Source: an uncultured virus (IMG/VR IMGVR_UViG_3300042558_001076) (lineage: Duplodnaviria > Heunggongvirae > Uroviricota > Caudoviricetes). Taken from it: a stretch of DNA of 64,000 nucleotides. The translations under genes were made by a program, and so were the position numbers. Shown here one piece after another: positions 1,999 to 36,489 of the stretch. The stretch lies in IMG/VR virus record IMGVR_UViG_3300042558_001076. The stretch is one strand, 5' to 3'. Each line of letters starts with the position of its first letter. The first letter of the stretch is position 1. The notes beneath the pieces are model-generated. The model was given only the letters and a program-made list of their open reading frames with translations. It searched no databases and was not told the DNA's origin.

Positions 1999-4900
1999 AT
2001 GTCATATAAATTTTTAAGTACAATATTAGGCATTGATGCCAACTTTACTGGTAACTTAGGGGTAGGAACAACTACCCCTACTAATAGATTAGACGTTATT
2101 GGTACTTCATACTTTTCAACAGATATGTATGTTGGACAAAACCACGGTATATTCTTTAATGGTAATGGTGGTTATGCAATGGGTCTGTTTAGTTCTGGCT
2201 CTGATTTGCTTTTCCAAGCAGGTGGCGCTGAAAAAATGCGACTTACAAGCTCTGGCAATGTAGGTATAGGGACAACAATTCCAGTTTCTAAATTACACAT
2301 ATCAGGAACAGGAACAAGTGCTTGGTTAACAATAGAAAGAACAGATAGTAATACTAACATTATAGACTTTACACAATCTGGAACTAGATTGGGTTATATT
2401 GGATATATATCAAATGAGTTATTAATTAACAATGTTAATTCTTCAAGTACTGTATTTACTACATTTAGCTTAGAAAGAATGAGACTTTCAGCTGCTGGTA
2501 ATTTACTTATTGGTTCTTCTACAGATGCTGGATATAAATTAGATGTTATTGGTAGCGGTAGGGTTTTTAATAGTATGTATGTTGCAAGTAGTGCATATCC
2601 TGGTTCGTATTATACTTCATTAAGGTCTGACGCTTCAGCTAATGGTATATTACAATTTGGTAATAATAACATAAATTATATATTAGCAGGTAACACATTT
2701 CCAGGTGGGTTTTTAGTATTCAAAGTTAATGTATCTGATGAAACATTGACATCAGGAACTGAAGCTATGCGTATTACTTCTGCTGCTAATATAGGTATAG
2801 GAACAACAAATCCTGTATCTAAATTACAAGTAGATAAATCATCTCAAAGTTATAGTTCTACTACTCCATCAGGAGCTGTTGTTCTTTCTAACTTATCAGG
2901 TGGTGATGGCATACTTGATATAGGTGTAGACAGTACATATTTAGGATATATCCAATCAAGAAACATATCTAATACAACTTATTATAATTTATTATTAAAT
3001 CCATTAGGTGGTAATGTAGGTATAGGCACAACAAATCCTCAAGGAAATTTAGATATATATCAGCCTTCTAATCCTTCATTATTTATTAGAGATAATTCAT
3101 CTATAATAAGATTATTGCCTTTTGGAGGTATTACATATTTTCAAACTGCACAAGCTTTATCATCTGGTTCAACAACAGATTTGTATTTTACTGGTATGTA
3201 TGGCACTCCTGTTAATATGGTTATTAGAGGGAATGGTAATGTACTAATTGGCACTACTACAGATGCAGGTTTTAAACTAGACGTTAATGGTAATGGTAGA
3301 TTTAATGGCGCAGTAATTACAACAAGTGCTGTAACTACAAATCAAACAGGTGGTCAATTTGCATATCAAGGTTCAAGCGTTACACAGGTAGGAGCTTGGG
3401 GTGCAAACTCATCTACAAGAGGTATATTAAGTTTTTATTTAACTGACTCAAATGGTACTATAGGTAATGAGTATGCTCGTTTAACAGACTCATCATATTA
3501 TGTTATACCTACAACTACATTAAATTCTTTATCTGGTTCTGGTACTCGTATGGTAGTAGCAGATGGTTCAGGTACATTATCTACTCAATCTATACCTACT
3601 GGTACAGTTACAGGTTCTGGTACTACTAACTATGTATCTAAATGGTCAAGTAGTTCTAGTTTGACTAATAGTTTGTTATATGATAATGGAACTAATGTAG
3701 GTATAGGTACGTCAAGCCCTGCATATCTTCTTGATGTAGCAGGAGCAAGTCGTTCAGATTTGCACATATTCCGTTCTAATCAATCTGCACCTACTGCTGA
3801 TGCGTTTATATTTAGACCTACTAATAATACTATTGCGTTAGGAACTGCTAATACTGAGCGTATGCGTATTGACGCTGCTGGCAATGTAGGTATAGGAACA
3901 AACAATCCAACTACTTCGTTAGACATTAATGGAAGTGCAGGTATTACATATAGCAACTATTTATATTTTGGTCATAATACTTCAACTATTGGTTCTTGGC
4001 AAACAAGAACATATGCAAATGGTGGCTATCAATATTACAATGCTTATGGATTTATATTCAATAATACAGGATATGGTTCATTAAATTTTATGACCATTAA
4101 TGGAGGTTCTGGTAACATATTAATTAATACAACAGTAGATAATGGAACTAAATTAAATGTTAATGGATTAACTCAATCTAATAGCTATATAGATTCAAGC
4201 AATACAAGAATCACTAGCCCAGAAGGTGGAGCATATACAAGTTACGGTAATACTACTGGTGCTATTAAAATTAAGCTTCCAGTCGCTACATATAATAGCT
4301 CTACAATGATGTATTTTACAGTTAAAATATATCAATACTATACAGGGTTATCTTATGAATTACAGATAGGTGGTTACAATTATAGTGGAGGAGATTGGTA
4401 CAATGTATTTGCTACTAACCTTACTGATGCAGGAAATCAATTAAGAGTAAGATGGGGTAATGATGGTTCGTCTAATTGTGTATGGATTGGAGAAACAACT
4501 GATACTTGGTATTATCCTCAAATAGGAGTTACAGATATCCAAGTTGGGTTTAATTACACAAAAGACTTTGCTACTGGCTGGCAAGTATCATTGGTAAACT
4601 CTTTTGATACGGTACAAGTACAAAGATATGCAGCTCAAGTTATTACTTCTAATAGTATATCTTCATATGGTATAACAGGTAGTGGTACTACTAATTATAT
4701 CCCTAAGTTTACTGGTTCTACTACTATCGGTAGTAGTATTATATCTGAAGGCAGTAATCTTATAAATGTTGCAGGAAAAATTTCAGCAACAGGTTTGGAT
4801 TATAGTACAATAGCTGTACAAAGTGGTTCTGCTCAATTAAAATTAGAAAGAACTGCTACAAGTGCAGGTTATATGTATATTGGTGCAGACGATAGTGGAT

Positions 4901-9891: not shown

Positions 9892-12800
9892 ATGGCTCAA
9901 ATTACAAAACTTTTTACGAAAGGTTTAGATACTGATACGGCTCCCCATCTTCAAGACAAGGAGTCGTATTCTTCTGCTATGAATGTCCATTTTTCTTTGG
10001 GTTCTTTATTAGGCCCTAGTGATGGACAAGGTGGTGGTATGGAAAGTTATAATACAGGTGGAGATGCAGGTGTTATAGAACCATTTGCAGGTAATACAGA
10101 TTGGACAAGTTTATTTACTTCGATGCCTGGGTTAAACCCATTTGTTAGTAATAGAAACTACGTTAGGGGTTATGACAAAGATGGTGCTAAATGTATTGGG
10201 TATGCAACTGATGACACAGAGTCGTTAAGTAGCAATACAAGATACATTTACTTATTTATTTATACACCTCAATATGGCAATCCTATTGAAACTGCTAACT
10301 CTTATATAGTAAAAGTGGCTTTACAATATGATGCTTCAGGTTCTAAAATAACTACAATCAAGCCAAGCCAATCATCTGTATTATTAAATGGAGAATGGGT
10401 TAATAATTCAGGGATAGATGATTTAGGGTTTTTACCTACTGACTTTATATCTGCTAGGGTTAGTGGCAATCAATTGATATTTACTGATAATAGAAACAAC
10501 ATTAGATATGTTGATGTAAATAAAGATTACTATACTAATAAACCTTCTTTTGAAGAGTTATCTTTAATTACAGAGCCAGGTCACGTACCTTTAACAAGTG
10601 TTAGAGGAAGTAGTGCAACTGACCCTATTATTATACAAAAGAATAACTATCAGTTTACTTATAGAATAACCAATGAGGACAACTTTATATCTGTATTAGC
10701 TCCTTATAGTGTAACTTCTTTGTCAGCTAGACAAGAAGAAATAACTGCACTATCTTATAGCTCTAATATAGTTACAATAGATTTAGATAAAGCACAGGTT
10801 ATTCCTGATAATTGGAAGAAAATAGAATTTGTTGCTATTAATTTAGAGACTGCATCATATCAAGTAATTAGGGTGTTTGATAAATATGACCAAACTTCAA
10901 GAACTTATAACTTTGGATTTGGTCCAGTTAGTTATACTGATGCTCAGTTAGTAGCAGACCATAATGACCCAGGTGCTCCATTTATATTTATTACCTATCA
11001 AAATTGGAATGGTACAAATATACAATATACCTTATCATCTACAGAAGCTTTTAAACAATTTGATAGTTTACCTATAACTTCTAAAGCTTTAGAATTAGCC
11101 TCTAATAGACTATTCTTGGCAAATAATCTTGAAGGTTATAATACACCAGCAACACCTCCAGATATCCCTGCAGATGTAACTACAGGACTATATACAGCAC
11201 CTACAAGTGCACAAGTATCTTGGGGTAGTTCACCAGCAGGAAATAACGGACCAATACTTGGGGGTACTCCAACTTTATTAATGGTAAGAAACCAAGGAGC
11301 TTCTACAGGATTTTATTATTGTTGTATTATAACAAGAGATTATGTTAATGGCGTAAACTATGGGTTTCCTGTAGATTGTGGTACTATAATATTTGAGCAA
11401 TCAAATCCTGCAACTGTTGCTCCTGATGGAACATTGACTTTAAGTAAGTCTATTGATGGGTATAGTGGTAATTTAATTGAATTGCCCCATTACATATCTG
11501 AGAAGTCATTAATTAAATTAAATGAAACTGGAGACCCTAAACTAGAAGATGTTTATAATACTCCTGCTAGAGGAATCCGATTAAATATATTAAAAGAATT
11601 AAATGAGTTTGCAGCTAATGTAGTATTAGGCACAACTGGAGATGAATTTATATACCCATTAAGTAATAGTGTAGGTCAAAACTGTATTGTTTTAAATGCA
11701 GCTGCTTATGCATCAGGTTTAAAACAAAGAGCATTTTATCCTAACTCTTCATATGAGTATGGTATTCAGTATTACGATAGTGCTTTAAGAAAATCTGGAG
11801 TTAAAAAAATTAACTCTATTAATGTACCTACATATGAACCAGTAAATAAACAACTTTTAGAGTATGTAGATTTTGATACTACTATAACGCAAGCTGGTGG
11901 AGTAATACCTAGTTGGGCTAACTATTATTCTATATGTGTTGCAAAAAATACTAAGGCATCTAATTTTATTTCTTTCATGCCAGACATGATGCGTTTTGCT
12001 TATAAAAATGCTGATGGTGTATTGGTTTATGACCAAAATGAAACTTCAACAAAATTAGAATATTATGGGTTAGCAATTCCTTTGTCATCACTTTATAAAG
12101 ATGGATTAGGATATAGCTATACGGCTGGTGATTTATGTGAATTAAATATAAAACCAACTGGTTCTTTAACTCCTGTAACATTAACTTATCCAGTTATAAA
12201 TGCAATAGATGGATACGTTATATTAGGGGCAGATAGAGCAACAATGTTGAATTATATATCTGCACAAATAAATCAAATATTTTTAGACTCTTCAGCTCCA
12301 TCTCCATGGACAGGTGCTAGCTTTAGCTACCCAGTCAGAAGATTTCAAGAAGAAATATTTGTAAGTATTTATACCCCTGTATTAACAACTCCTTCAGAAT
12401 ATGAAGTAGCAATGTTTGGAGAAATAACAAGTTCTACTACTTTTGGAACTCCATTTAATATAAGCGGAAGTCAATTATTTGGAGACACATATACTCAATC
12501 AAGAGATGCGCAAGGTGGTTCTCAAATGATGTTGAGTAAAGCACGTTATGAAATAAATCAAATCAATTGGATACATGACTTTGGCAGAATTGCACCTATA
12601 GATAATATAGGTCAAAAACAATTAACCAATTCTATTAGATGGTCTAATGTTAAATTACCTAACTCTAATGTAAATGGGTTATCTACATTTGACGCATTAG
12701 ATGAAACATCTGTAGACCAATCATCAGGTCCAATTACTACTATATTCTTGTCTAGCAAAGAAGCTAACCAAGGTGGACGTATGTTGGTGTTATGTAACTC

Positions 12801-13797
12801 TGGTAGTTATATAGCATTAATAGGACAACAACAAATATATTCTGCTGACCAAACCCCTGCGTTAACATCATCTGCAGGTGTACTTGGTACAATACTCCCA
12901 CTTACTAATCTTTGGGGTTGCATTAGCCCTCAAAGCGTTGTAGGGTACAAAGGTATTGTTTTCTGGGCAGACGCCCTTAATAGGGAAATAATACAGTTTG
13001 CTGGAGATGGGGCTTCTCCTATTAGCCAACAAAAAGCAGGCTTCCTTTGGAATCAAGTATTTAGAAACTTACCATTTGATGATAGCGCTAATAGTGCAGC
13101 TAATATTAAATGTGGTATTAACCCATACACATATGAGTTGTTTGTTACTTGCCCTAACCCAAGTATAACAGGTAAACAATATCCTGGTAACTGTGGAGAT
13201 AATCATATTAATCAATACATAGGAAACAAGAATGTATCTTATGTATATAACTGGCAAGCTAATACTTGGATAGGTGGATATGAAGATAATCCTGACCAAT
13301 GGATAAGAGTAGGTGATGATGTATTCTCTATTGGTTCTCAATACGGTACAACTGGGTTGAAACTATATAAAGAATTTGACAATACTACTGGTGTGTTTAA
13401 TCAAGCTACAACAGGCGCTTGGATAGCTGCTCCATATAGCATAGGTACATACCCTGCTACAATAGAACCATTATCAGTAATCTTAATGGGTCAATTAACA
13501 ACTACAAGTACAGTTATATATGCTAGAGACAACTCTACCAATGTAAATAATAACTTAACCCAGATTAGTTTGATTAGCGATGGCAACTACGCTATGAGAG
13601 AAGGAGAAATGTTTAGCTCTGTGTATAGAAATAGATTGAGCAATAACGCTACTACCAATACAGAGTATGATACTCAAAACATAGTAGGAGATAGAATAAG
13701 AACTAAAACTCCTTGGGTACAATTAAACTTCCCTACAAATCAGCAAATTAACCTACAAGGTATAAGATTAGAAGTTAAGCAGAGCTCTGGACACTAA
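9892..13797 (+). CDS. crAss-like tail stabilisation (muzzle) protein
   Basis: 1301 aa; N-terminal FTKGLDTD, LIFTDNRNNIRY, NRLFLANNLEGY, YEYGIQYYD and WGCISPQS motifs resembling podovirus tail stabilisation proteins; last gene of the tail module. Confidence 0.65.
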   Translation: MAQITKLFTKGLDTDTAPHLQDKESYSSAMNVHFSLGSLLGPSDGQGGGMESYNTGGDAGVIEPFAGNTDWTSLFTSMPGLNPFVSNRNYVRGYDKDGAKCIGYATDDTESLSSNTRYIYLFIYTPQYGNPIETANSYIVKVALQYDASGSKITTIKPSQSSVLLNGEWVNNSGIDDLGFLPTDFISARVSGNQLIFTDNRNNIRYVDVNKDYYTNKPSFEELSLITEPGHVPLTSVRGSSATDPIIIQKNNYQFTYRITNEDNFISVLAPYSVTSLSARQEEITALSYSSNIVTIDLDKAQVIPDNWKKIEFVAINLETASYQVIRVFDKYDQTSRTYNFGFGPVSYTDAQLVADHNDPGAPFIFITYQNWNGTNIQYTLSSTEAFKQFDSLPITSKALELASNRLFLANNLEGYNTPATPPDIPADVTTGLYTAPTSAQVSWGSSPAGNNGPILGGTPTLLMVRNQGASTGFYYCCIITRDYVNGVNYGFPVDCGTIIFEQSNPATVAPDGTLTLSKSIDGYSGNLIELPHYISEKSLIKLNETGDPKLEDVYNTPARGIRLNILKELNEFAANVVLGTTGDEFIYPLSNSVGQNCIVLNAAAYASGLKQRAFYPNSSYEYGIQYYDSALRKSGVKKINSINVPTYEPVNKQLLEYVDFDTTITQAGGVIPSWANYYSICVAKNTKASNFISFMPDMMRFAYKNADGVLVYDQNETSTKLEYYGLAIPLSSLYKDGLGYSYTAGDLCELNIKPTGSLTPVTLTYPVINAIDGYVILGADRATMLNYISAQINQIFLDSSAPSPWTGASFSYPVRRFQEEIFVSIYTPVLTTPSEYEVAMFGEITSSTTFGTPFNISGSQLFGDTYTQSRDAQGGSQMMLSKARYEINQINWIHDFGRIAPIDNIGQKQLTNSIRWSNVKLPNSNVNGLSTFDALDETSVDQSSGPITTIFLSSKEANQGGRMLVLCNSGSYIALIGQQQIYSADQTPALTSSAGVLGTILPLTNLWGCISPQSVVGYKGIVFWADALNREIIQFAGDGASPISQQKAGFLWNQVFRNLPFDDSANSAANIKCGINPYTYELFVTCPNPSITGKQYPGNCGDNHINQYIGNKNVSYVYNWQANTWIGGYEDNPDQWIRVGDDVFSIGSQYGTTGLKLYKEFDNTTGVFNQATTGAWIAAPYSIGTYPATIEPLSVILMGQLTTTSTVIYARDNSTNVNNNLTQISLISDGNYAMREGEMFSSVYRNRLSNNATTNTEYDTQNIVGDRIRTKTPWVQLNFPTNQQINLQGIRLEVKQSSGH

Positions 13798-14599: not shown

Positions 14600-14611
14600 A
14601 TATAATACGTT
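14600..14611 (-). promoter_or_regulatory. late promoter motif AACGTATTATAT
   Basis: exact reverse complement upstream of ORF 13831-14580. Confidence 0.65.
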
Positions 14612-17600
14612 TAATCTAAGCTATAAAGCATTGAACCAAAATCTAATGTATCTATCTCTTTTTCAGAGCGTTGCAATATGTTCATGTAGTCTTCATCAAA
14701 CAATATATCACCTTTGATTTTACCTACATCAACCCTATTACTATTAGCATCTTTAAACAATGTATCTAATTCTTCTTTGCTAAATGAGAACTTCTTAGCA
14801 GCATTGTAATACATTTTATTAGCTTTTACAGTTGCTCTCAATAGTTTGTTAAGAATTTCTTTTTGCTTATCTAATTGTTCTTTTATATCCTTGTCTTCTA
14901 ATATAGCTTGCTTTTGGTCAAAGCTTGGTATTTCATAGAAACTATTAACACGGCTACCGTCTTCTTTCTTATATCTAGTTGCAGCTAAATTTAAAATCTT
15001 ATCTACTTCTTCATTAGCCATTATAATAGCATCACTTGCTCTTTTATGTTCTTTTCTAATTCTACCAGACAATGAACCATATACATTAATCTCCATCTTT
15101 TTACCTCTGAACCCGCTAACAATCATATCATTAATTGTATTACCAGCAGCATCAACCCACTCTTCATTAGCATACTTAGCCATTTCAGCATTTTTAGTAT
15201 AAGTACTCATGTCACCTGGTAATACACCTTGAACAAAGTTTTTACCATTCACATAGGTTTTATTAATTAAACCTTCTGATTGAGATTCATTAGCTGTCTT
15301 TTTATCGTTAGCAGCTTTAAAAGCAGTAAGTAACAATACAGGAGCACCACCAAATGTTAATAATTGGTCAGATACTACATCAATAGACCTGTTACCTACC
15401 CCTTTATAGTCAGCATATGGTCTATCGGAAGGAGACTTATCATACATTAAACCTCTCAACCAATCGGTAACAACAGCAAACTGGTCGTTTTGGCTAAGGT
15501 TTAATACTGTCATCTTCTTGGTCTTAGGGTCATATGTATACTCAATACTTTTATCGTATAGGTAATCAGGTAAAACTAATTGAACGGTTTGTCTCATTGA
15601 CGCATCACCATTTAAAACAGCTTTAGCATTAGCATACATCTCATACATAAGATTAGTTTCACCAAGGCCAGAGTTAGTAATTACACCATTCTGTTTCATT
15701 TGGTCCTCTTCTTTGCTAGAGTTGAATATACCACTCATTAAAGCATAAGTACCTTGTAATGCACCACTAAATGTAGCAGCACCAATCATCTTAGTTCTTC
15801 TTTTGTTTCTAGCTAACTTGTTAATCATATCTTGATTTTCTAATTTATCATCAGAAAACTTAATATGCTTGTAGCTTTTATCTAAATCATATCCTGCTAC
15901 TTGACGTGCAGTATTATACATTGTACGATACATTTCATATCGGTATCTAGCAAACGTACCGACACCTCTAAACTTACCAAATTCAGCTGCTCTTGAAGGG
16001 GTTGCAAAGTCTTCTTTAACATCTAATGAAGCAGCTTCTCTAACGGCTTTCATTTGTTTCTCGTTCAACTCATAGAAGTTCTTACCATATATATCCAAAG
16101 ATATAGTGTTTCTTCTTATCTCATATTGTACCATCTTAGGTGCAACGTCCCCTAATATAAACAGCTTCTGCATACCTTTAACAGCAGCTTTAGCCATATA
16201 ACCCATAGAGTTATAGAATTGTTTATATAAAGCATCTGTGTTGCCTATTTTAAGAGCATCATCAAACTTGTTATCTGAGTTTAATACTTTAACCCATTGG
16301 TTTATTGCATCTTCACTAATAGAAGTAATAGCACCATCTTGTAAAGCATCTTGGGCTAATCCTTTAATATAGCCCTCTGTTTTCCCTTTTTGTTCAGCGC
16401 TTCTGTTCTCATAATACAATGTACCATCAACTAAAAAGTTGCTTCCTTTTTTTGCCATTGAAGTAGTCATTCTGATTAAATCAGGATAAGTACCAGACAA
16501 CATAAATGCACCTTTAAAATATGACTCAAAGTTTCTAATAATAGAAGATAAGTTTAAACTTACTTTCATCATATTAACAAGGTCTACTTGACCCATATAT
16601 ACATTACCTATCTTTTGGGCTAATGTAGATTGAAGTGTTTCATCACCAATAGTAAACGAAGGCATTTCAAACATAGCTTTGTATAACAATGGGTCCATTT
16701 TATACCCATACAAAGGTCCTTGCATTTTTTTTGTAGCACCAGGGTAAGCACTTTCTCCACCTACTAATACATAGTTCTTGTATTTATTATCTCTTACATT
16801 ACCCTTTACAATATATCCAGCTTCTAATCCCATCTCCAATATGTTATTATGGAGTTGTAATTTGTTACCAAGGTTTTGCAATCTACCAATAGTATAGAAG
16901 TAATTTTTAAATACATTATTGCTTTCTCCAATAACTTCTCTGTACCATTGTGGCAAGTCCTTTCTCTTCATGAATTGCTTAGTGTTTATAGAACCATTAG
17001 CTGACTCCATATACTGACCTTTCTCTACATGTTGGATAGCATCTTCATATAATCTTTTAGCTTCATCAATTACGTCTTTATTGTACTGATTTTCTTCAGC
17101 CTCATACTCTTTAGTTAATTTATCAATATTGTTGATAATTTCATTGTATTCAGTTTGCCATTTATTTTTATTCTTAACCTCCCCACTATTCATAGCAGTC
17201 TCTGCATCTATTTTCTTTTGGGTTTCAGCAGTTAATTTATCTTTTAAACCTTGCAAATCTATTGCTCTTTGTCTAAAACCTGTTCCAGCATTGATATCAG
17301 CAGCTGTATCAGAATAACCATTCTTAACCCATGTTTGGAACCCATCAATAGCATTTTTTATTTGCTCTGGAGATAAGTCTTTAACCCATTGTGCATTTGC
17401 TATTGGCTTATCTTCTTTAACTAATACTCTTAGTCCAGGTATTTTAGATATTATTCTATCTTTAACTTTCTTAGATACAGGTACATTAGGGGTTGTATAT
17501 TTATCATATAATCTAGCTACATAAGTACCTAGGTTTTTTTGATACTCAGATAACTCAGCAGCACTTAACCAACCTGTGCCCATAATGAACTCAGATGCGT

Positions 17601-19800
17601 TATCTATATTAGACCTCATTAAATCTACAGTAGTTTTTAATTTAGGGCTAAGTAAATCAAATGCAGCTCTATCACCTTTCAATGCATTATCAATAACTTT
17701 AGATAAACCTTCAGCTGTACCCATAGGGTCTGGTTCAGTTTTACCTTGGTTTAATTCACCAATGTATTCTGACATTTCATTCTTTAAAGTATTCAATAAT
17801 TCAATATCGGTTCTCTCATAGTATGCTTTCATACCTTGAGCCTTTTCCAACTCAGACAATGCTGACATTGGTAATTTTCTATCAGCAGGTAATAACCAAT
17901 TTTTTAAATTGATTTGTCTCTTAGCTAATTTCTTTTCGTCAGTTCTAATATTAACAACATCTCCAACAACATCTTCTTCTCTATCAGATATCTTCTTTAA
18001 AGGTTTCTCAGAAGAAGGCAATGCTTCAATGTCACCAGAACCTTTATAAACTTTACCTTGATTTTCAGAAATTGCTTGCTGTTTTTTAACAAGCTCATTA
18101 ATTTCATTTCTGATGGCTTTTTTATTTTCAGGGGAAAGGTCCTCTACGTTTAATAAATCTTGAAGCTCAACAATTTTATCAATAATTTGTTCCTCTTCAC
18201 TCTTTATTCCACTATCAATATTTTCTGTTTCATATGCTGCTTTAGCTTTTGCAAACGGAATTTTTTCAGCGGTAGTAGGCTTAACCTCGTTTGTTAATCT
18301 TGATTTGATTTGTTTGCCTGAAACGTCTTTACCGCTTGATTTAGACAAGCCATCACCTAACTCTTTAAATGCGTCTCCAACTAAACCAGAAGGCATACTA
18401 CCTCTTCTTGTGCTTAATGTACCAATAGAATTAGAACCAGCAAATTCAGCTGGTACTCTAAGGTTACCTACCATTATATCACCTAATATTTGTTCAGTTA
18501 ATGAACTAACATCTTGAGGTGTTAAGTTGTTCATGCTTAACCCTTCGTTCTCTGCATATTCTTGTAGTAACCCTGATTGTTCAAACAAATCTTCAGCTTT
18601 CTTTAATATAGCCTTACCTTTATTTGATTGATTTAATATATCAATTACATCAGTAGAATATATAGGTTCAGGTTTAGTTTCTTTTTTAGCTGCACCTCTA
18701 CCTTGTTGTGGTGACTTGTTTTGGTTTCGTTGTTGTTCTGCAGCTATTTGTGCAGGTGTTTTATCTTCAATAAGTTTAGTAGTCGCCATTCTAGCTTTAC
18801 CACTCTTAGTTCTAATACCTCCAGATACTTCATCAGCCAATTTAGAAGTAAAATCTTTTAAAGATAAATTACTTACTTGATTGTATGTTAATCCTTTAAA
18901 TCCTTTCTTATCAACAAAGCTTTCAATCATAGTAGTATACCATTTTGAAAACTCATTATTTGATTTTGTTTTAAACGCCTTTTCTGTCTCTCTTGAAAGT
19001 ATTTCGCTTGCTAAATTGTTTTCTCCTTCTATACCACTACCTAATGTAATATCAAAATACTCATAAAGATAGTTATCAGCTTTGCTTAATACAACTTGAT
19101 TTTTTGCTTGCTCCATTGCAAGAGTCTTAGCTTCAGCATCTGATTTTTTCTCAAATTGATATTTAGCCCTAAGCATATCATAAGCTTGTTTATACTTGAT
19201 ATACTTGTTATATTGAGATGATGCTTTTGCAATATTAATACCAGCCTGAAATATTCTTGGGCTTCTTTTCTCTATGAACTTAAACCATATATGGGTTGAC
19301 TCATGGAGAGGTGCGTCTAATGATGCTTGAGACGCATTGATATACATAGTTTTGGTATTAGGGTCGTAGAAAGCCTCATCATATTCAGAAGCTTCAACCC
19401 CATCATAGTATTCTTTATGGACTTCATTAAATGTCTTAGCGTCAGCAACAACTACCTTAACACCTGGTGCAGTCTTATTGTTTTCTCTGTAGATGTCATT
19501 GACGTCATTAGCAAATTTCTTAACCCCTGTTTCGTCAAAGCTTCCTTTAGAACCCTTGATAGACTCAGTAGTAACTACATTACCATCTTTATCAGTAGTA
19601 ACAACGCCATAGTTTTCTCCAGCTATAGCATTGTCAATGTCTTTAAATATAGTAGGTGAAGATAAAGAACCTTCAAATGTTTTGCTATCAACAGAAATAA
19701 GACCTCTTTCCTTTAAAGAAGCAAGGTCTTTTTCTGATAATTTTTTAATTAGGTCGGCATAAGAATACGTTTGCCCTTTGTATGTATAGATACAATCCAT
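14611..19800 (-). CDS. large virion cargo/ejection protein with zincin-like metallopeptidase motif
   Basis: 1729 aa; FYDP....YIN.....DAPLHESTH (HExxH); size and position match crAss-like cargo genes. Confidence 0.6.
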   Translation of the reverse strand: MDCIYTYKGQTYSYADLIKKLSEKDLASLKERGLISVDSKTFEGSLSSPTIFKDIDNAIAGENYGVVTTDKDGNVVTTESIKGSKGSFDETGVKKFANDVNDIYRENNKTAPGVKVVVADAKTFNEVHKEYYDGVEASEYDEAFYDPNTKTMYINASQASLDAPLHESTHIWFKFIEKRSPRIFQAGINIAKASSQYNKYIKYKQAYDMLRAKYQFEKKSDAEAKTLAMEQAKNQVVLSKADNYLYEYFDITLGSGIEGENNLASEILSRETEKAFKTKSNNEFSKWYTTMIESFVDKKGFKGLTYNQVSNLSLKDFTSKLADEVSGGIRTKSGKARMATTKLIEDKTPAQIAAEQQRNQNKSPQQGRGAAKKETKPEPIYSTDVIDILNQSNKGKAILKKAEDLFEQSGLLQEYAENEGLSMNNLTPQDVSSLTEQILGDIMVGNLRVPAEFAGSNSIGTLSTRRGSMPSGLVGDAFKELGDGLSKSSGKDVSGKQIKSRLTNEVKPTTAEKIPFAKAKAAYETENIDSGIKSEEEQIIDKIVELQDLLNVEDLSPENKKAIRNEINELVKKQQAISENQGKVYKGSGDIEALPSSEKPLKKISDREEDVVGDVVNIRTDEKKLAKRQINLKNWLLPADRKLPMSALSELEKAQGMKAYYERTDIELLNTLKNEMSEYIGELNQGKTEPDPMGTAEGLSKVIDNALKGDRAAFDLLSPKLKTTVDLMRSNIDNASEFIMGTGWLSAAELSEYQKNLGTYVARLYDKYTTPNVPVSKKVKDRIISKIPGLRVLVKEDKPIANAQWVKDLSPEQIKNAIDGFQTWVKNGYSDTAADINAGTGFRQRAIDLQGLKDKLTAETQKKIDAETAMNSGEVKNKNKWQTEYNEIINNIDKLTKEYEAEENQYNKDVIDEAKRLYEDAIQHVEKGQYMESANGSINTKQFMKRKDLPQWYREVIGESNNVFKNYFYTIGRLQNLGNKLQLHNNILEMGLEAGYIVKGNVRDNKYKNYVLVGGESAYPGATKKMQGPLYGYKMDPLLYKAMFEMPSFTIGDETLQSTLAQKIGNVYMGQVDLVNMMKVSLNLSSIIRNFESYFKGAFMLSGTYPDLIRMTTSMAKKGSNFLVDGTLYYENRSAEQKGKTEGYIKGLAQDALQDGAITSISEDAINQWVKVLNSDNKFDDALKIGNTDALYKQFYNSMGYMAKAAVKGMQKLFILGDVAPKMVQYEIRRNTISLDIYGKNFYELNEKQMKAVREAASLDVKEDFATPSRAAEFGKFRGVGTFARYRYEMYRTMYNTARQVAGYDLDKSYKHIKFSDDKLENQDMINKLARNKRRTKMIGAATFSGALQGTYALMSGIFNSSKEEDQMKQNGVITNSGLGETNLMYEMYANAKAVLNGDASMRQTVQLVLPDYLYDKSIEYTYDPKTKKMTVLNLSQNDQFAVVTDWLRGLMYDKSPSDRPYADYKGVGNRSIDVVSDQLLTFGGAPVLLLTAFKAANDKKTANESQSEGLINKTYVNGKNFVQGVLPGDMSTYTKNAEMAKYANEEWVDAAGNTINDMIVSGFRGKKMEINVYGSLSGRIRKEHKRASDAIIMANEEVDKILNLAATRYKKEDGSRVNSFYEIPSFDQKQAILEDKDIKEQLDKQKEILNKLLRATVKANKMYYNAAKKFSFSKEELDTLFKDANSNRVDVGKIKGDILFDEDYMNILQRSEKEIDTLDFGSMLYSLD

Positions 19801-20315: not shown

Positions 20316-23300
20316 TTATAAACAATCTTTTCCTTTAGATTCAAGCAACTTAAGTCTACGTAGTTGGTCAAATAAGTCTTTAACGTCTTTCATATTCTCT
20401 GGTCTTGTAAACTCAGCTTCTTTAGCTTTCTGGGTGTACTCTGGTTTAGCTGCTTCAGTTTCTGTAGTTTGCTCTTCCATATCACTTTCAAATTCAAATG
20501 GCTGTTCTTCTGTAGCAACAGTAATCTCATCAGGGATAATAGCTGTTTTACCACCTATCTCTAAAATGTCCCCACTCTTAATAATTACATTACCTGAGTC
20601 AGTCTTAACTATCAAGTCACCATTAGCCATTTCATTTATTACTTGGCCTTTTACTTCTGCACCTGTAGCGTCCTTACCTAATACGTTAGCCCCAACTATA
20701 GTTTCTTTTTGTGGCTCTTCAGTTTTAACTTCTTCTACAACTTCTACCGCAGCAACAGGTTTACCTTCTACTTGACCTACAACTTCAAATCCTTCTTCAG
20801 TTCTAGCTTCTTTCTCTGCTTGTTGTTTCTTAGCTTCTTTTACTATCTCTGCTCTTCTATCTATCTCTGCTTTGTTTCTATTATAGTAATCTTGTTCAGC
20901 TTTATTTTTAGCAAATGCTAACTTACCTTTACTTGCTACTCTTTCAGCAAATTGGTTAAGCTTCATTTCTTTATTGCTATTTCTTTTTTCTTCTCTTAAC
21001 TTTTTTTCTTCAGCTGCTTTTGCCTCAGCTTGTCTTTTTGTTTCAATGTCAGCAAAGGTAATAACGTCATCTTTTAACATACCTTTTCTTTCCATTATCT
21101 TTAATGCACCATTAATGTATCCTTCAACTCTTCCTTGGTCATTATAACTAGGTAATAACCCATTATGAAGTGCGCTAGCTAAATCTTCTTTAGGTACGCC
21201 CATTTTTCTCAAGAAGTCTACAGCAGCTTTAAAAGCTTCAAACTCTGGGTTCTTCCCATATACCTTTCTGCCATTAGCATCTACAGTAGAGTTTAGGGTT
21301 TTAACAAAATCATTTAAAGCTTTTACTTTCTCTGACTCTGGTAGTGTATTATAATATTCTAAAAACGTCTTAATCTTTTCAGCAGCTGTTACTGTAGTAT
21401 TAGTAGCCTCATCAATAAAAGCACCTTCTACATTGCCATCTAATACGTCAGTAGCATCAACGTCTTCATCGTTATCAGCAATCTTTGTTTTAGTATCTTG
21501 GAATACTTTACTTGTAGCCTGTTTAATGTTCATGTCAACAGGTATTTCCTCTACGCCTAATTGAGTAGCAGCTTCAGGAGTACCAGGAACTTTTATGTTA
21601 TCCCAGTATTGTCTTTGCACTTCAGGGTCTGAGTCATGCATATCCGATACATTCTTAGCTGCTTCAGCAAATGTAATAGGTCTTAATACTTCAAAAGAAT
21701 TATCTACGTTACCTAATCTACCTCTTCTTGCTTCAACGATAGCTTGAGCAACTCTCTTACGGCCATCAATTATATTGCCATTCTCATCTAAAACAATTGG
21801 CATTGTTGTTTCTTCTCCAGTAACCTTTAAACTTCCAGACTCTATATCTTTGATATGTTTCTTAACAATAGGGTCGTTTTCAAATCTTAATGGGTTAGCA
21901 ACTTCGGAGAAAAACCCTAATGGAATTTCAGCCATAGACCTAACTTGGAAAGGTTTTAATCTTCCGTCAGGTGAAGCATCAGAAGCCTTTTGTACAACTT
22001 CATTAGAAGTAACTAATCTACCTCTAAATGCATTGCCATCTTGTATCTTTTTAATATCTCGAGATACAGTATTTATTTGATTAGAAATTGCCTCCATCTT
22101 ATCGGCAGCTTCTGTATTTCTTACAGGTATAATGTTCTCTGCACTTACAGGTGCATCAATACCAGATACTTTAAATTGGATATTACCATCAGGTCCTTCA
22201 TTAATAGACTCAACAGTAGCATTGCTTGTAATAACTTTTCCGTTGTTGTCTCTTACTTGAACTTCTTCTCCTTCTGATAAGCTTGTAGACATTTGCTTAG
22301 CAGCTTGGTTTCTTTTGTTGATTAAGTCTTCTCTTTCTGCTGAAGCAAACACATAGTTACCAAAATACTTTTTATTAAATCTAGGGTTGTTTTCCATAGA
22401 TACCATAGCATCTGTAACATATGGTTGTATTTTGTTTAATAATGAAATTGCTTTTCTTCCTTGTTCTGGCGATACAACTCCACTATTTATCTCTCTTGAT
22501 ATTTGCGTTACACTATTGGCAAAGTTCTTAGGAGAAGCCATATCAGCAACAGTATTTGTATAGTAACTGTTGTTGTTTTTGAACATTCTACCAGCACCTT
22601 TATAATCCATTAACCCATGGAGTGCGGCCATAGACAAGAAGCTTTTACCATACTCTTTCATTGCTTCTTTTGATAAGTACTCTTCTGGCTCTAATTGTAT
22701 ATCAGCAGCTTGAAAAGGTATATCCAAATCACCTACTTTATAAGTACCATCTTCAAATACGCCTGTAATCTTTTCTTTTACAACTTGGTTATTAGGTAAC
22801 TTGGCAGTTACTAAATCACCTTGCATAGGTATTCTATTTTCAGCGTACAAGTCTTTTGCTACTTTCTCCCCTACGGTTGCTAATGCACCTGAAGTACCAC
22901 TCATTGCAGCTCCTGTACCAAAATTTAACATTTGTCTAGTTGTAGACAAGTTCTTAGGGTTAAGTATAAACTTAGATAATGTATTCTTGTATGGGTTTAA
23001 ATTAAGGAAAGACCCAGGAAGAGAAAAGGCAAATGTTGTTGCCAAACCATTAGCTGTAGCAAACTTATGAGCATCTTCTTCAGATAGCCCCATCTTATCA
23101 GCTTGTTCTAAAGACTCACCTTTTGTTAGGTAGAATACTTTAGGAAACTGATTCATAAAATTGCTAGTTAAATTAATACCCCATCTTCCTAATTTGCTAG
23201 TAGCTATATCAGCAGTTAAAGCACCGATACCCTCAACAGGAATAGTGTATGGGGCAATAGTAGATGCAATCCCTGTTATGCCTTGAGCAAAACCTTTAGG

Positions 23301-24014
23301 GCTAACACTACCAGTCTTCTCATCAATAATAGGTACTTGTTCAACGTCTTTAATAAACTCTTGCTTAACTCTCTCTGCTGGCTTAGTAAATATACCTTTC
23401 TCTGCTTTGTTTATCTTGCTAACAGCTTCTTGTACATCGTAGTCTTCTAATGACTCTTGATTTTTTTGTAATTCAGCTTTTGCTCTACCAACATCAGATA
23501 GAAAAGAACCAATACCTTGCCAAACTTTACCTGCTGTTTTAACTAAGAAATCACCAGCGTATTTGGTAAATGGGTCATATTGTTCTTGTTTATTGGCTTC
23601 TGCAATCTCAGGCTCAAATTTAAACTCTCTTTGAGGGCTATAATCTACCTCTTCAACTGGACCAACAAATCTTTTCTTTTTCTCTGCAGTAACTTTAACT
23701 TCTGGTGCTGTATACTCTATAGGTTGATTTAATGAAGATATAGGCATACCAGAAAGATGCATTAAAGCATTATGGTATTGTGGGCTTGCTTGGGTTTTTA
23801 AATCTGTCCAAGATGAATTAATTAATTTAGAGGAACTTTTATCTAACTCGCCTTTCTTCCAACCCATGTAGTCTTTTGCAAGAGCGTCCATTCTATTGTT
23901 AAAATCAGGACTCTCGTAATCTAACTTACCATATTGGTCAATATATGCTTGGTTAATTAAATCTTGGTCATCGTCATTTAATACAACGCCATTAATAACT
24001 ATTTTATCTTGCAT
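20316..24014 (-). CDS. large virion cargo/ejection protein with a ParB-like domain
   Basis: 1232 aa; amphipathic Gly/Ala region and MPIVLDENGNIIDGRKR ParB/Srx-like motif. Confidence 0.55.
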   Translation of the reverse strand: MQDKIVINGVVLNDDDQDLINQAYIDQYGKLDYESPDFNNRMDALAKDYMGWKKGELDKSSSKLINSSWTDLKTQASPQYHNALMHLSGMPISSLNQPIEYTAPEVKVTAEKKKRFVGPVEEVDYSPQREFKFEPEIAEANKQEQYDPFTKYAGDFLVKTAGKVWQGIGSFLSDVGRAKAELQKNQESLEDYDVQEAVSKINKAEKGIFTKPAERVKQEFIKDVEQVPIIDEKTGSVSPKGFAQGITGIASTIAPYTIPVEGIGALTADIATSKLGRWGINLTSNFMNQFPKVFYLTKGESLEQADKMGLSEEDAHKFATANGLATTFAFSLPGSFLNLNPYKNTLSKFILNPKNLSTTRQMLNFGTGAAMSGTSGALATVGEKVAKDLYAENRIPMQGDLVTAKLPNNQVVKEKITGVFEDGTYKVGDLDIPFQAADIQLEPEEYLSKEAMKEYGKSFLSMAALHGLMDYKGAGRMFKNNNSYYTNTVADMASPKNFANSVTQISREINSGVVSPEQGRKAISLLNKIQPYVTDAMVSMENNPRFNKKYFGNYVFASAEREDLINKRNQAAKQMSTSLSEGEEVQVRDNNGKVITSNATVESINEGPDGNIQFKVSGIDAPVSAENIIPVRNTEAADKMEAISNQINTVSRDIKKIQDGNAFRGRLVTSNEVVQKASDASPDGRLKPFQVRSMAEIPLGFFSEVANPLRFENDPIVKKHIKDIESGSLKVTGEETTMPIVLDENGNIIDGRKRVAQAIVEARRGRLGNVDNSFEVLRPITFAEAAKNVSDMHDSDPEVQRQYWDNIKVPGTPEAATQLGVEEIPVDMNIKQATSKVFQDTKTKIADNDEDVDATDVLDGNVEGAFIDEATNTTVTAAEKIKTFLEYYNTLPESEKVKALNDFVKTLNSTVDANGRKVYGKNPEFEAFKAAVDFLRKMGVPKEDLASALHNGLLPSYNDQGRVEGYINGALKIMERKGMLKDDVITFADIETKRQAEAKAAEEKKLREEKRNSNKEMKLNQFAERVASKGKLAFAKNKAEQDYYNRNKAEIDRRAEIVKEAKKQQAEKEARTEEGFEVVGQVEGKPVAAVEVVEEVKTEEPQKETIVGANVLGKDATGAEVKGQVINEMANGDLIVKTDSGNVIIKSGDILEIGGKTAIIPDEITVATEEQPFEFESDMEEQTTETEAAKPEYTQKAKEAEFTRPENMKDVKDLFDQLRRLKLLESKGKDCL

Positions 24015-30970: not shown

Positions 30971-31041
30971 GTGCCAAGACAGGGATCGAACCTGCGTCTC
31001 CCACCTACAATGGTGGAGTGTTACCATTACACTACTTGGCT
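30971..31041 (-). tRNA. atypical tRNA (Gln-like, TTG in a 6-nt loop)
   Basis: GCCAAG/CTTGGC acceptor, GTGT-AATGGTA-ACAC D arm, CCACC-ATTGTA-GGTGG arm, GCAGG-TTCGATC-CCTGT T arm. Confidence 0.6.
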
Positions 31042-31042
31042 G

Positions 31043-31138
31043 AAGTGGCGAACAATTTGCGGTTGTTCATTTCTACTTCTGAATGTGCTGATTAAGTTAA
31101 CATCACAGCAGGAATTTCATTTTCGTCTATTACCACTT
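31043..31138 (-). ncRNA. candidate structured RNA between tRNA-like genes
   Basis: AAGTGGT/GCCACTT terminal stem stacked on a GAACAA-N7-TTGTTC arm; internal TGCTG/CAGCA stem. Confidence 0.45.
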
Positions 31139-31140
31139 TG

Positions 31141-31252
31141 TAGTCAGGACAGGATTCGAACCTGTATGGTCTCAAGAGTTGACATTGCTTGGTGCACCAA
31201 GGAGACCTTCGGCATTTGCTCTAGTAGCGTCTACCAATTCCGCCACCTGACT
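31141..31252 (-). ncRNA. tRNA-like RNA with ~60-nt insert replacing the anticodon arm
   Basis: AGTCAGG/CCTGACT acceptor, Leu-type GGCGGAATTGGTAGACGC D arm, ACAGG-TTCGAAT-CCTGT T arm. Confidence 0.7.
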
Positions 31253-31257
31253 ATTTT

Positions 31258-31359
31258 TTATAATGTTCCTTTTATAATTAAACTTAATGTGAATATTCCT
31301 ATTATTCCACCAATAAAGAAACCTAATATAAATCCATTCCAATATTTTTCGTTTTTCAT
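31258..31359 (-). CDS. 33-aa single-TM membrane protein (not in ORF track)
   Basis: MKNEKYWNGFILGFFIGGIIGIFTLSLIIKGTL*; A-rich leader. Confidence 0.6.
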   Translation of the reverse strand: MKNEKYWNGFILGFFIGGIIGIFTLSLIIKGTL

Positions 31360-31373
31360 AATTTTTATTTTAG

Positions 31374-31453
31374 TAGTCAGGACAGGACTCGAACCTATAA
31401 ATTTTAATGGATTTACTGCCCATTAATGCGGCTACCAATCCCGCCACCTGACT
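31374..31453 (-). ncRNA. tRNA-like RNA with extended anticodon stem (GTA in loop)
   Basis: same acceptor stem; GCGG/CCGC D stem; TTAATGG/CCATTAA stem; TTCGAGT T loop. Confidence 0.7.
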
Positions 31454-31493
31454 ATTTGCAACTTTTATCTATACACCTTTGAGTTGCCAACAA

Positions 31494-31570
31494 AGCCTAC
31501 CAACGATTAGGAGCGAGCAGTTCTTATGGTATGCCACGCCTGTGCTTCGAGTTCCCTTGTACTTCGGGCT
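31494..31570 (-). ncRNA. candidate structured RNA (possible pseudoknot)
   Basis: GC-rich intergenic segment; AGCC/GGCT closing stem; loop TACCA complementary to downstream TGGTA. Confidence 0.4.
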
Positions 31571-31571
31571 G

Positions 31572-32369
31572 TTATTCTTCAATTTGTTTTGATGCCCATG
31601 CAGGTAATCCGATTGATTGGATATCCCAACCTTTATCCCATAAGCCTTCTTTTTTTACGTGGTGATAAATTGTTAATGCAACATCCAATAACTTCTGACC
31701 ATACAAGTGGTAATCCTTATCAGCTTTTATAAAATAGCTTCTATAAGGTGCTACCGTTTGGATAATCAAGTAAGTAGTATTAGGATAGTAATCTAACCCA
31801 AACTCTTTCTTAGCAAGTACGCTATAGATAGCAGCCTGCATAGGATACTTAAGGTTAAAGAAAGAAGCAATCAACTTATCAGCAGATGACTCGCTTGTAG
31901 TTTTAACCTCTATAACACCTTCGTTATAGCAATCTATGATACCCTTGAAAGGCACGTTAGCTATGGGTTGATTAATAACAAACTCAGTCTTGCCAGCGTT
32001 AATGATATCCATAACGTGGTCAGGGATATACTTAATACAACGCTCAGCTTTATCTACTTCTTTATCCTTAACAATAATCTTTCCTTTGTTCTCTTGAAAG
32101 AAATGTTCTTTCTTTTCTAACTCAGGTTTAGTTCTACCAAAGTCAGGTTGAATAACAAACTTAGTACCGAACTCATGTGGCTCTAACACTAATGTATGGA
32201 TAAGAGTACCTAATCTCATAGCCTCGGTAGGCTCATCAGGTTCGTACATTAGTTTGTTTGTTATCTCCCATTGGAATTTAGCAGGGGAGTCTAATAAGTT
32301 TTTAGCGGTCGAGAAGGAAAGGCGGAACTCAGGTGAGTTCAACCAGTCCATAAATAATTGATTTGCCAT
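31572..32369 (-). CDS. RecE/exonuclease VIII-like PD-(D/E)XK nuclease
   Basis: LSFS..K.LLDSP, AMRLGTLIHTLVLEP, KGIID...IEVKTT and YPMQAAIY motifs. Confidence 0.85.
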   Translation of the reverse strand: MANQLFMDWLNSPEFRLSFSTAKNLLDSPAKFQWEITNKLMYEPDEPTEAMRLGTLIHTLVLEPHEFGTKFVIQPDFGRTKPELEKKEHFFQENKGKIIVKDKEVDKAERCIKYIPDHVMDIINAGKTEFVINQPIANVPFKGIIDCYNEGVIEVKTTSESSADKLIASFFNLKYPMQAAIYSVLAKKEFGLDYYPNTTYLIIQTVAPYRSYFIKADKDYHLYGQKLLDVALTIYHHVKKEGLWDKGWDIQSIGLPAWASKQIEE

Positions 32370-36359: not shown

Positions 36360-36439
36360 TAGTCAGGACAGGAATCGAACCTGCAAGTTTTAATGGATTT
36401 ACTGCCCATCAATGCGGCTACCAATCCCGCCACCTGACT
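36360..36439 (-). ncRNA. second copy of the extended-stem tRNA-like RNA
   Basis: near-identical to 31374-31453 with pairing-compatible changes; TAACTTTG promoter element at 36446-36453. Confidence 0.7.
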
Positions 36440-36489
36440 ATACAACAAAGTTAATTAATGTTGTATTATTTATTTACGGTAAAATTACC

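What the first reader, a model, noticed from the sequence alone, without database searches (positions are those of the whole stretch)
31141..31252. tRNA-like RNA with a ~60-nt structured insert
Seen: a perfect Leu-type D arm and T arm enclose an insert containing GGTCTC...GAGACC and CTTGGT-GC-ACCAAG stems where the anticodon and variable arms should be. The architecture resembles a tiny tmRNA-like or intron-bearing tRNA but is far too short for tmRNA or a group I intron. Inference: a payload-carrying tRNA mimic.
Basis: partly seen in the sequence, partly recalled or inferred. Interest (0 to 1): 0.7.

Follow-up and report, generated by a model that had tools for sequence, protein, structure and literature searches.

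The report
Phage leucine-tRNA shell with swappable cargo
This phage gene encodes a small RNA that keeps the frame of a leucine transfer RNA but has lost the codon-reading arm and carries a conserved, folded extra segment; it belongs to a large phage family in which related viruses swap these segments, and its job is untested.

Summary
Real, on the minus strand (31252→31141). It has a 7-bp acceptor stem, a Leu-type D arm, a normal T arm and A73. Positions 27-43 have anticodon-arm length, with CAA at 34-36, but no stem and no U33. A 40-nt variable arm follows. Its basal helix has both-sided changes in 3 of 6 pairs across 6 homologues. No single deletion gives a normal tRNA. It is not a tmRNA (no G3·U70).

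It belongs to a large phage family: 242 elements, and 137 insert types among 160 inserts. The family keeps Leu variable-arm geometry (43 of 137, against 13.9 shuffled). Relatives of this phage fill the same slot with other inserts or lack the block. A neighbouring cargo RNA occurs both inside and outside a tRNA shell.

Best reading: a tRNA-Leu shell processed by the host, probably chargeable, that stabilises an exchangeable cargo RNA. The cargo's target is unknown and expression is not shown. Closest known: T5 RNA1/RNA2. The scan noted this family before on other genomes.

The parts
31141..31252 (-). tRNA-Leu-shaped RNA gene without an anticodon stem-loop (112 nt to A73; C74 is encoded at 31140, the rest of CCA is not)
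   Evidence: Rfam tRNA 36.8 bits; numbering
31246..31252 (-). Acceptor stem, 5' strand (positions 1-7)
   Evidence: Pairs 7/7 with 31142-31148; re-paired with other letters in homologue L403
31227..31243 (-). Leu-type D arm (positions 10-25) with A14, A15, G18G19 and A20a
31209..31225 (-). Positions 27-43: anticodon-arm length, CAA at 34-36 (31218-31216), no stem, G at 33. Its 3' part can pair with positions 8-12 in an alternative fold; its AGAG may pair with the variable-arm linker as a pseudoknot
31168..31207 (-). 40-nt variable arm: 6-bp basal helix (31207-31202 with 31173-31168), 14-nt palindromic hairpin (31201-31188) and 14-nt linker (31187-31174)
   Evidence: 3 of 6 basal pairs changed on both sides; palindrome 0 of 14 columns variable; linker 1 of 14
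31149..31165 (-). T arm with canonical loop; A47 and U48 at 31167-31166
31142..31148 (-). Acceptor stem, 3' strand; discriminator A73 at 31141
31374..31453 (-). Sibling element with the same acceptor stem and a short insert (7-bp stem, 9-nt loop, no normal anticodon loop); ARAGORN calls it tRNA-Ala
36360..36439 (-). Second sibling, a near copy of 31374-31453
31258..31359 (-). 33-codon hydrophobic ORF between the two tandem elements; absent from the same slot in relatives
   Evidence: Read by eye; slot comparison
31044..31137 (-). 'Module Y': conserved non-coding RNA closed by a terminal stem, directly downstream. The same core sits inside a tRNA-like shell in L404/L433
31455..31573 (-). 'Module X': conserved, probably structured non-coding segment upstream of the slot
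   Evidence: 82-97% identical in L404 and L393; also in L431 and L435
30971..31041 (-). Non-canonical tRNA-like gene with a 6-nt anticodon loop that ends the block
   Evidence: same arm in L431 and L435

Best explanation
It is a non-decoding RNA derived from tRNA-Leu that works as a shell for an exchangeable cargo RNA. It is transcribed as part of an accessory non-coding RNA block of an uncultured, probably Bacteroidota-infecting phage. Its acceptor stem and D/T elbow let the host's tRNA machinery cut it out and finish the CCA end, which also frees the neighbouring module Y RNA. It keeps the known bacterial LeuRS identity set, so it is probably leucylated and bound by EF-Tu, but it cannot read a codon. 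The working part is most likely the conserved middle (variable-arm helix, palindromic hairpin, linker), acting as a folded ligand or decoy for a host protein rather than as an antisense guide. At the DNA level the constant ends serve as homology arms, so phages exchange cargoes by recombination. Shown: anatomy, absence of a decoding arm, covariation, family size, slot variation, one cargo in two kinds of shell. Inferred: transcription, processing, charging, recombination as the exchange route, and the cargo's role.
For: Anatomy. No decoding arm in the family: 4 of 242 have a canonical anticodon arm, one of them buried in a long insert. Selection on RNA structure: the same insert occurs in 6 distinct sequences with covarying variable-arm and acceptor helices. 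A scan anchored on the D arm alone gave 85 closed elements: 53 ordinary tRNA-Leu and 32 insert-type, the latter with 19 different acceptor 5' strands, each with a matching 3' strand (at least 6 of 7 pairs were required), and U48 in 32 of 32. Leu geometry: a helix ends one base before N48 in 43 of 137 insert types against 13.9±3.1 shuffled (maximum 20); ordinary Leu 11 of 15 show this spacing, Ser 1 of 11, Tyr 0 of 5. tRNA-style 3' end: C74 in 185 of 189 and CCA in 6 of 189, like ordinary tRNAs of the same loci (95 and 11 of 97). A73 170 of 189 and U48 151 of 189 against 58 and 35 of 97 in non-Leu tRNAs. E. coli tRNA-Leu variants lacking the anticodon and variable arms remain chargeable, and the identity set is A73, A15-U48, G18G19, A20a and D/T contacts (PMC9976931, passages); all are present in the window's RNA. 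Exchange: between the same flanks, L393 and L431 carry one element with another insert, L435 a third, and the window two elements plus a mini-ORF; L392 lacks the block. The window's insert occurs in other flanks in a 174-kb phage contig (L389/L405). The module Y core is in a tRNA shell in one contig (L404/L433) and in a plain terminal stem in the others.
Against: No expression evidence: only assembled contigs were available, none spans this insert, and the run with most cover is probably DNA. A73 is not fixed in insert-type RNAs (24 of 32, against 53 of 53 in ordinary tRNA-Leu), and only 76 of 189 have all five scored identity features, so charging cannot be universal. 94 of 137 insert types do not show the Leu-spaced helix. 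Inserts fold only slightly better than shuffles (mean z -0.66; 8% below -2). The predicted best fold of this RNA opens the D arm and is 3 kcal/mol more stable than the cloverleaf-constrained fold (-36.3 against -33.3), and the consensus fold agrees. Only 6 homologues of this insert were found, two of them by patterns that include the palindrome (L404 by that pattern alone). No partner protein or target was identified. The block is absent from a close relative (L392).
Confidence: 0.5

Rival explanations
1. The shell is the working part: an anticodon-less, Leu-chargeable tRNA decoy that soaks up host enzymes that attack or sense tRNA acceptor ends or elbows, or that serves as a ribosome-independent leucine donor. 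The middle only has to fold and stay out of the way.
For: The ends are constant while the middles fall into 137 types. Leu identity features are enriched. Phage tRNAs can counter tRNA-targeting defence: T5 tRNA-Tyr against retron 78 (10.1101/2023.03.15.532788, start of abstract only). Several copies occur per genome (up to 7 matches in one 4-kb locus).
Against: This insert is kept at 90-97% identity across different flanks and even under a different acceptor stem. Its unpaired linker is nearly invariant (1 of 14 columns). The module Y cargo persists without a tRNA shell. A73 is missing in 8 of 32 insert-type RNAs.
Confidence: 0.25
2. It is mainly processing punctuation plus a recombination repeat. 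tRNA-like ends cut the polycistronic transcript and let phages shuffle accessory DNA (mini-ORFs, small RNAs); the enclosed insert is largely a passenger.
For: Slot variation between identical flanks. Spacers between tandem elements hold small RNAs or short hydrophobic ORFs (67 distinct spacers). Chimeras carry ordinary Lys or Ser anticodon arms on the same acceptor and T arm.
Against: Punctuation does not need a covarying Leu-spaced variable helix or a conserved insert. Many different acceptor sequences exist, which a pure homology repeat would not favour.
Confidence: 0.15
3. A decaying tRNA-Leu(CAA/UAA) pseudogene, or a precursor that is spliced or refolded into a decoding tRNA.
For: Positions 27-44 have exactly canonical length in the window. 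The triplet at 34-36 is CAA in 2 and TAA in 4 of the 6 homologues, both Leu anticodons.
Against: No anticodon stem and no U33. No single deletion restores a canonical arm (0 found). The segment is one base longer in 3 of 6 homologues. The C/T change can also be read as part of a possible pseudoknot helix. There is no helix enrichment at the anticodon-stem start in the family (17 against 13.0 at offset 1). Compensatory changes argue against decay.
Confidence: 0.05
4. A miniature tmRNA-like RNA whose insert is read as a 13-codon tag.
For: A 13-codon frame ending in TGA lies inside the insert and has no indels in 6 of 6 homologues. A recalled resume-type motif followed by an open frame occurs in 22 of 137 inserts against 14.9±3.7 shuffled (10 of 300 shuffles as high).
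Against: No G3·U70 (0 of 242). No Ala-Ala-stop (0 of 137). No Rfam tmRNA match here. Of the 6 variable sites in the frame, 4 change the amino acid (counted by eye). The stop lies inside the covarying helix. The RNA is too short to reach the mRNA channel (my knowledge of tmRNA geometry).
Confidence: 0.03

Closest known systems
Phage T5 RNA1 and RNA2 (AY543070 30501-30644 and 32959-33083; annotated 'tRNA-like stable RNA with unknown functions')
   Same: tRNA top half around a large folded middle. RNA1 has a Leu-type D loop and a helix ending one base before U48; RNA2 has a T arm of the kind seen in this family and an un-encoded CCA (read by eye). T5 also has stem-closed stable RNAs between tRNA genes, like module Y.
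   Different: No sequence similarity in the middles or acceptor stems; BLAST of the element against cultured phages found no T5 match among the 40 rows listed of 44. RNA1's acceptor stem is imperfect and it did not pass my closed-shell filter. T5 RNAs are annotated as stable RNAs; this one has no expression data.
Phage T4 species 1 and 2 RNAs (rnaC, rnaD; NC_000866 70908-71171)
   Same: Small stable RNAs of 119-139 nt in a phage tRNA cluster; rnaC has a canonical T arm near its 3' end.
   Different: No Leu-type D arm was found in either; rnaD has no canonical T arm.
Bacterial tRNA-Leu (class II)
   Same: 7/5 acceptor and T stems, D arm, A73, A15-U48, variable stem starting at 45 and ending one base before 48.
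   Different: No anticodon stem-loop; variable arm 40 nt instead of about 11-15; length 111 against 79-85 for 53 ordinary viral tRNA-Leu.
Bacterial Y RNAs (YrlA) and allo-tRNAs (PMC4201824, PMC5389517; search listing and start of abstract only)
   Same: Non-canonical tRNA-shaped RNAs.
   Different: No Rfam Y RNA match. The acceptor/T branch is 7/5, not 8/4 or 9/3.
Unannotated element in Bacillus phage SPP1 (X97918, about 6648-6755)
   Same: Leu-type D arm, paired acceptor stem and an insert in place of the anticodon arm.
   Different: Different acceptor stem, atypical T loop and unrelated insert. It is not annotated as RNA in the record.

Membership tests
Decoding tRNA-Leu | 5-bp anticodon stem with 7-nt loop, U33 and purine 37 | tested here: not met
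   Positions 27-43 do not pair and position 33 is G
Decoding tRNA-Leu | 7-bp acceptor stem, Leu-type D arm, T arm, class II variable arm with one unpaired base before 48 | tested here: met
Bacterial LeuRS substrate (E. coli identity set) | A73, A15-U48, G18G19, A20a, U54/U55/C56/A58 | tested here: met
   All present; set taken from PMC9976931 passages. The host enzyme is not E. coli's.
Bacterial LeuRS substrate (E. coli identity set) | Actual leucylation | not testable with these tools
   Needs an aminoacylation assay
tmRNA | G3·U70 alanine determinant | tested here: not met
   Pair 3:70 is U-A; 0 of 242 family members have G3·U70
tmRNA | Internal tag ORF with Ala-rich end in a long pseudoknotted loop; Rfam RF00023 match | tested here: not met
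   No match at the element; Ala-Ala-stop in 0 of 137 inserts
Intron-containing tRNA | Removal of one internal segment gives a canonical tRNA | tested here: not met
   0 of all single deletions within the insert gave a canonical anticodon arm at the expected place
Intron-containing tRNA | Group I core | tested here: not met
   No Rfam Intron_gpI match at E<=10
Intron-containing tRNA | Bulge-helix-bulge splice motif | not tested
   Not searched for; moot because no deletion product is canonical
T5 RNA1/RNA2-type tRNA-like stable RNAs | tRNA acceptor/D/T frame enclosing a large folded middle with no anticodon arm | tested here: met
T5 RNA1/RNA2-type tRNA-like stable RNAs | Accumulates as a stable processed RNA | tested here: inconclusive
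   Only contigs were laid; none spans this insert
allo-tRNA | 8/4 or 9/3 acceptor/T branch | tested here: not met
   7/5
Y RNA (YrlA) | Rfam match; Ro60 gene nearby | tested here: inconclusive
   No Rfam match. No Ro60 family among 28 window proteins scanned, but these are not all of the phage's proteins

The most novel reading that the evidence does not exclude
Phages keep a large, exchangeable library of RNA effectors (structured ligands or decoys for host defence or translation proteins) displayed on a leucylated tRNA shell and shuffled by recombination between the constant ends: an RNA counterpart of integron-like cassette arrays. T5 RNA1/RNA2 would be long-known, unexplained members. This insert, with an invariant self-complementary hairpin and a possible D-arm on/off alternative fold, could act as a dimer or a two-state switch.
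Probability: 0.3. Interest if true: 0.85.

Novelty: new variant of a known kind. Interest (0 to 1): 0.6.

Why it matters
In a scan of viral contigs for one Leu-type D-arm sequence, 32 of 85 complete hits were not tRNAs but shells with inserts. This is a common class of phage genes that annotation tools miss or mislabel: ARAGORN called 53 of 242 family members tRNAs, with scattered or undetermined anticodons. Counts of phage tRNAs and codon-compensation arguments can be distorted by them. The T4 and T5 records carry stable RNAs of unknown function. A modular family with natural insert swaps, a testable LeuRS prediction and a candidate in the laboratory phage SPP1 makes that question open to experiment. 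If the inserts are effectors, they are a large unread pool of phage RNA tools, and nature has its own version of the tRNA-scaffold trick used to stabilise RNA in the laboratory (recalled, not from a call).

Tried and rejected
Plus-strand reading: z -1.25, no tRNA features. Low-threshold ARAGORN runs with introns gave 105 and 407 calls, which is noise.

Antisense guide: the longest exact match of the insert elsewhere in the 64-kb window is 12 nt; 41 of 200 shuffles reach 12 or more. The rest of the roughly 91-kb phage and the host were not searched; no genome is held.

Pseudoknot between the AGAG segment and the linker: 4 of 6 pairs never vary, none covaries, 83% of cells paired. Left open. Palindromes are not a family trait (8 nt or more: 18 against 29.5 shuffled; 14 nt or more: 1 against 0.54).

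Known RNA families inside inserts: Rfam on 20 loci found only tRNA, tmRNA and one group I intron, the last two as separate neighbours.

This insert was not found in genome contigs.

Expression: 9 runs held at most 15% of the sampled words. Four were laid; the shell ends are heavily covered by other family members and the middle is not. A 60-base skip in run X1 is not taken as splicing, because the run is probably DNA and the sides are under 30 letters.

Host: the capsid protein has no match among cultured phages and the primase-helicase only weak Bacillus/Moorella phage matches. A recalled Bacteroidota promoter motif showed no strand bias in 78 family loci (88 against 86). A sigma-70 scan found nothing above chance.

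My first variable-arm count was confounded by terminal G·U pairs and was redone with a Watson-Crick outer pair. The 56-codon and 151-codon ORFs that overlap the element are taken as chance: indels upstream of the insert frame differ among homologues.

Literature: eight searches listed no paper that describes this family. The library lacks most subscription and older papers, including the original T4/T5 work.

Full report
Setting. The window is part of an uncultured phage genome. Pfam finds an SU10-type major capsid protein, a DnaB-like helicase, an ERF protein, a PD-(D/E)XK nuclease, a sigma-70 region and an amidoligase among 28 proteins scanned. A 91-kb IMG/VR contig is essentially identical over the regions compared (L390, L391). 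No cultured phage is close. Of 20 genome loci with relatives of the ERF protein, 12 are in assemblies labelled as Bacteroidota lineages, so the host is probably a Bacteroidota bacterium; these are binned contigs, so this is a hint only.

Observation. The element lies on the minus strand, 31252 to 31141. Rfam's tRNA model scores it 36.8 bits with the middle unaligned; ARAGORN does not call it. Numbered as a tRNA, it has a 7-bp acceptor stem, U8, a D arm identical over 22 bases to annotated Salmonella tRNA-Leu, and then 17 bases at positions 27-43 with CAA at 34-36 but no stem and G at 33. A 40-nt variable arm starts at position 45, followed by A47, U48, a canonical T arm, A73 and C74. [quoted passage not shown] The second stem is a 14-nt palindrome that folds as 5 bp with a 4-nt loop. 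The unconstrained fold opens the D arm (-36.3 kcal/mol) and is 3 kcal/mol better than the fold with the tRNA frame enforced (-33.3). These programs do not model D/T tertiary contacts and also misfold the D arm of T5 tRNA-Leu, so the point is open.

Homologues of this insert. Pattern scans gave 6 distinct sequences including the window's; three other hits were unrelated coding matches and were dropped. In the variable-arm helix 3 of 6 pairs changed on both sides, in three different sequences or sequence pairs. One homologue has a different, re-paired acceptor stem. Overall 7 of 26 pairs covary, and 0 of 500 shuffles reach that; six related sequences are a small sample. The palindrome is invariant and the linker varies at 1 of 14 columns. 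A possible pseudoknot has no covariation. The bases that would open the D arm in the alternative fold are also invariant, so a two-state RNA is not excluded.

Family. From all loci then held I extracted 242 distinct elements, 51-234 bases long, median 104; 14 further 3' matches had no 5' end in the locus. Of these, 184 could be parsed for the D stem; 160 had inserts of 30 bases or more, which fall into 137 clusters, 121 of them singletons. Only 4 of 242 have a canonical anticodon arm: two Lys, one Ser, and one buried in a long insert. Because those patterns fixed the acceptor stem, I also scanned with the D arm alone. Of 109 distinct starts, 85 closed with a T arm and paired acceptor stem and 24 did not. 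Of the 85, 53 are ordinary tRNA-Leu (79-85 bases, all with Leu anticodons) and 32 are insert-type (91-221 bases) with 19 different acceptor 5' strands, this family's being the commonest at 10. By eye, some inserts recur under different acceptor stems (L483/L488, L481/L494, L533/L380). The structure of the shell is conserved, not one sequence.

Leucine identity. According to PMC9976931 (passages seen through two term searches), E. coli LeuRS needs A73, A15-U48, G18G19, A20a and the D/T contacts, and variants lacking the anticodon and variable arms remain active. The window's RNA has all of these. In the 189 elements found by the 3' pattern, A73 is present in 170, A15 in 167, U48 in 151, A20a in 96 and all five scored features in 76; non-Leu tRNAs from the same loci have A73 in 58 and U48 in 35 of 97. 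Across 137 insert types a helix of at least 5 bp ends exactly one base before position 48 in 43, against 13.9±3.1 shuffled; the neighbouring offsets show at most weak excess (19, 21, 12, 20 against about 13-17). That spacing is the Leu one in the ordinary tRNAs of these loci: Leu 11 of 15, while Ser has 0 unpaired bases in 9 of 11 and Tyr has 2 in 5 of 5. There is no such signal where an anticodon stem would start. Against obligatory charging, 8 of 32 insert-type RNAs lack A73.

Exchange. The element sits in an accessory block of about 600 bases (30973-31574) between the nuclease gene and an SSB-like gene. One relative (L392, 92% protein identity) lacks the whole block. In others the slot between modules X and Y has the same flanks but other contents: one element with a different insert in L393 and L431, a third type in L435, and two elements plus a 33-codon ORF in the window. 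The window's own insert occurs in unrelated flanks in a 174-kb contig. Module Y, directly downstream, was found in 16 loci. In most it is closed by a covarying terminal stem and lies between tRNA-type genes; in one contig (L404/L433) the same core is enclosed in a tRNA-like shell. Cargo and shell are therefore separable. Recombination between the constant ends is the simplest route, but it is inferred.

Mechanism and rivals. The best-supported reading is a host-processed tRNA-Leu shell, probably chargeable, carrying an exchangeable folded cargo (0.5). The main rival is that the shell itself is the effector, a decoy for tRNA-directed enzymes (0.25); the conservation of this insert under a changed acceptor stem and the shell-free module Y argue against it. 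Punctuation plus recombination repeat (0.15) is probably a true side role but does not explain the covarying variable arm. A spliced or decaying tRNA (0.05) fails because no single deletion restores a canonical arm. A mini-tmRNA (0.03) fails on G3·U70 and tag features, although a 13-codon frame is intact in 6 of 6 homologues and a resume-like motif is marginally enriched. No antisense target was found in the window. Expression could not be shown: four runs were laid, all as contigs, covering the shell ends through other family members but not this insert.

Known relatives and novelty. The T5 record annotates RNA1 and RNA2 as tRNA-like stable RNAs of unknown function, and T4 has rnaC and rnaD. 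RNA1 has a Leu-type D loop with a large middle, and RNA2 a T arm like this family's. SPP1 has an unannotated element of the same build. These leads, and the word 'chassis' for the shell, came from earlier notes of this scan, which had found the family on other genomes; I checked the T4, T5 and SPP1 records myself. Eight paper searches listed no description of the family; apart from PMC9976931 I saw only listings and abstract starts, and no supplements. The kind is known from single examples. The family size, the Leu-specific geometry and the natural swapping are not in the papers I could search. Verdict: real, a new variant of a known but unexplained kind, interest 0.6.

Noticed in passing
window 31044-31137 (-); L429-L444: Module Y: a conserved non-coding RNA with a nearly invariant core of about 58 bases, a covarying terminal stem and a covarying 3' hairpin, usually placed between two tRNA-type genes. 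No convincing Rfam match (only weak snoRNA hits below gathering score). It deserves its own study.
   Followed up: partly
window 31455-31573 (-); L393, L404, L431, L435: Module X: a conserved non-coding segment of about 120 bases; one 3' stem appears re-paired in L404 (by eye).
   Followed up: partly
window 30971-31041 (-): tRNA-like gene with a 6-nt anticodon loop and a mismatch at the first acceptor pair. The same arm is kept in L431 and L435 with a re-paired D stem, so it is conserved rather than decayed.
   Followed up: partly
window 36441-36453 (-): A match to the recalled Bacteroidota -7 promoter motif lies a few bases upstream of the third element. Such matches are frequent in the window (about 60), so this is only a lead.
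   Followed up: no
window 31258-31359 (-); L150, L312, L284, L361: Short hydrophobic ORFs of about 30 codons recur in spacers between tandem elements.
   Followed up: no
L193, L309, L360, L387, L071, L117; L505: Six of 137 inserts contain a second T-loop-like motif (0.23 expected), as T5 RNA2 does; L505 appears to hold a nested tRNA-like unit.
   Followed up: partly
L275, L312, L284: Apparently normal Lys(UUU) and Ser(UGA)-type anticodon arms on this family's acceptor stem and T arm: chimeric tRNAs whose amino-acid identity is unclear.
   Followed up: no
L250, L265, L297, L347 and others: A short hairpin motif recurs in spacers next to family elements and tRNAs (23 of 428 loci; absent from the window).
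   Followed up: no
L056:280-316: A collapsed element in which the D and T parts are lost, apparently by deletion between short repeats in the D loop and T loop.
   Followed up: no
L263:358-942; L404:678-1082: Phage tmRNA genes lie next to family elements; in L263 a group I intron abuts the tmRNA match.
   Followed up: no
L428:6760-6815 (SPP1): A second, very short T-arm-bearing hairpin unit follows the SPP1 element.
   Followed up: no
window 1999-7569, 9892-13797, 14611-19800, 20316-24014: Four very large ORFs (1232-1856 aa); only the 1232-aa one was scanned against Pfam, with no hit.
   Followed up: no
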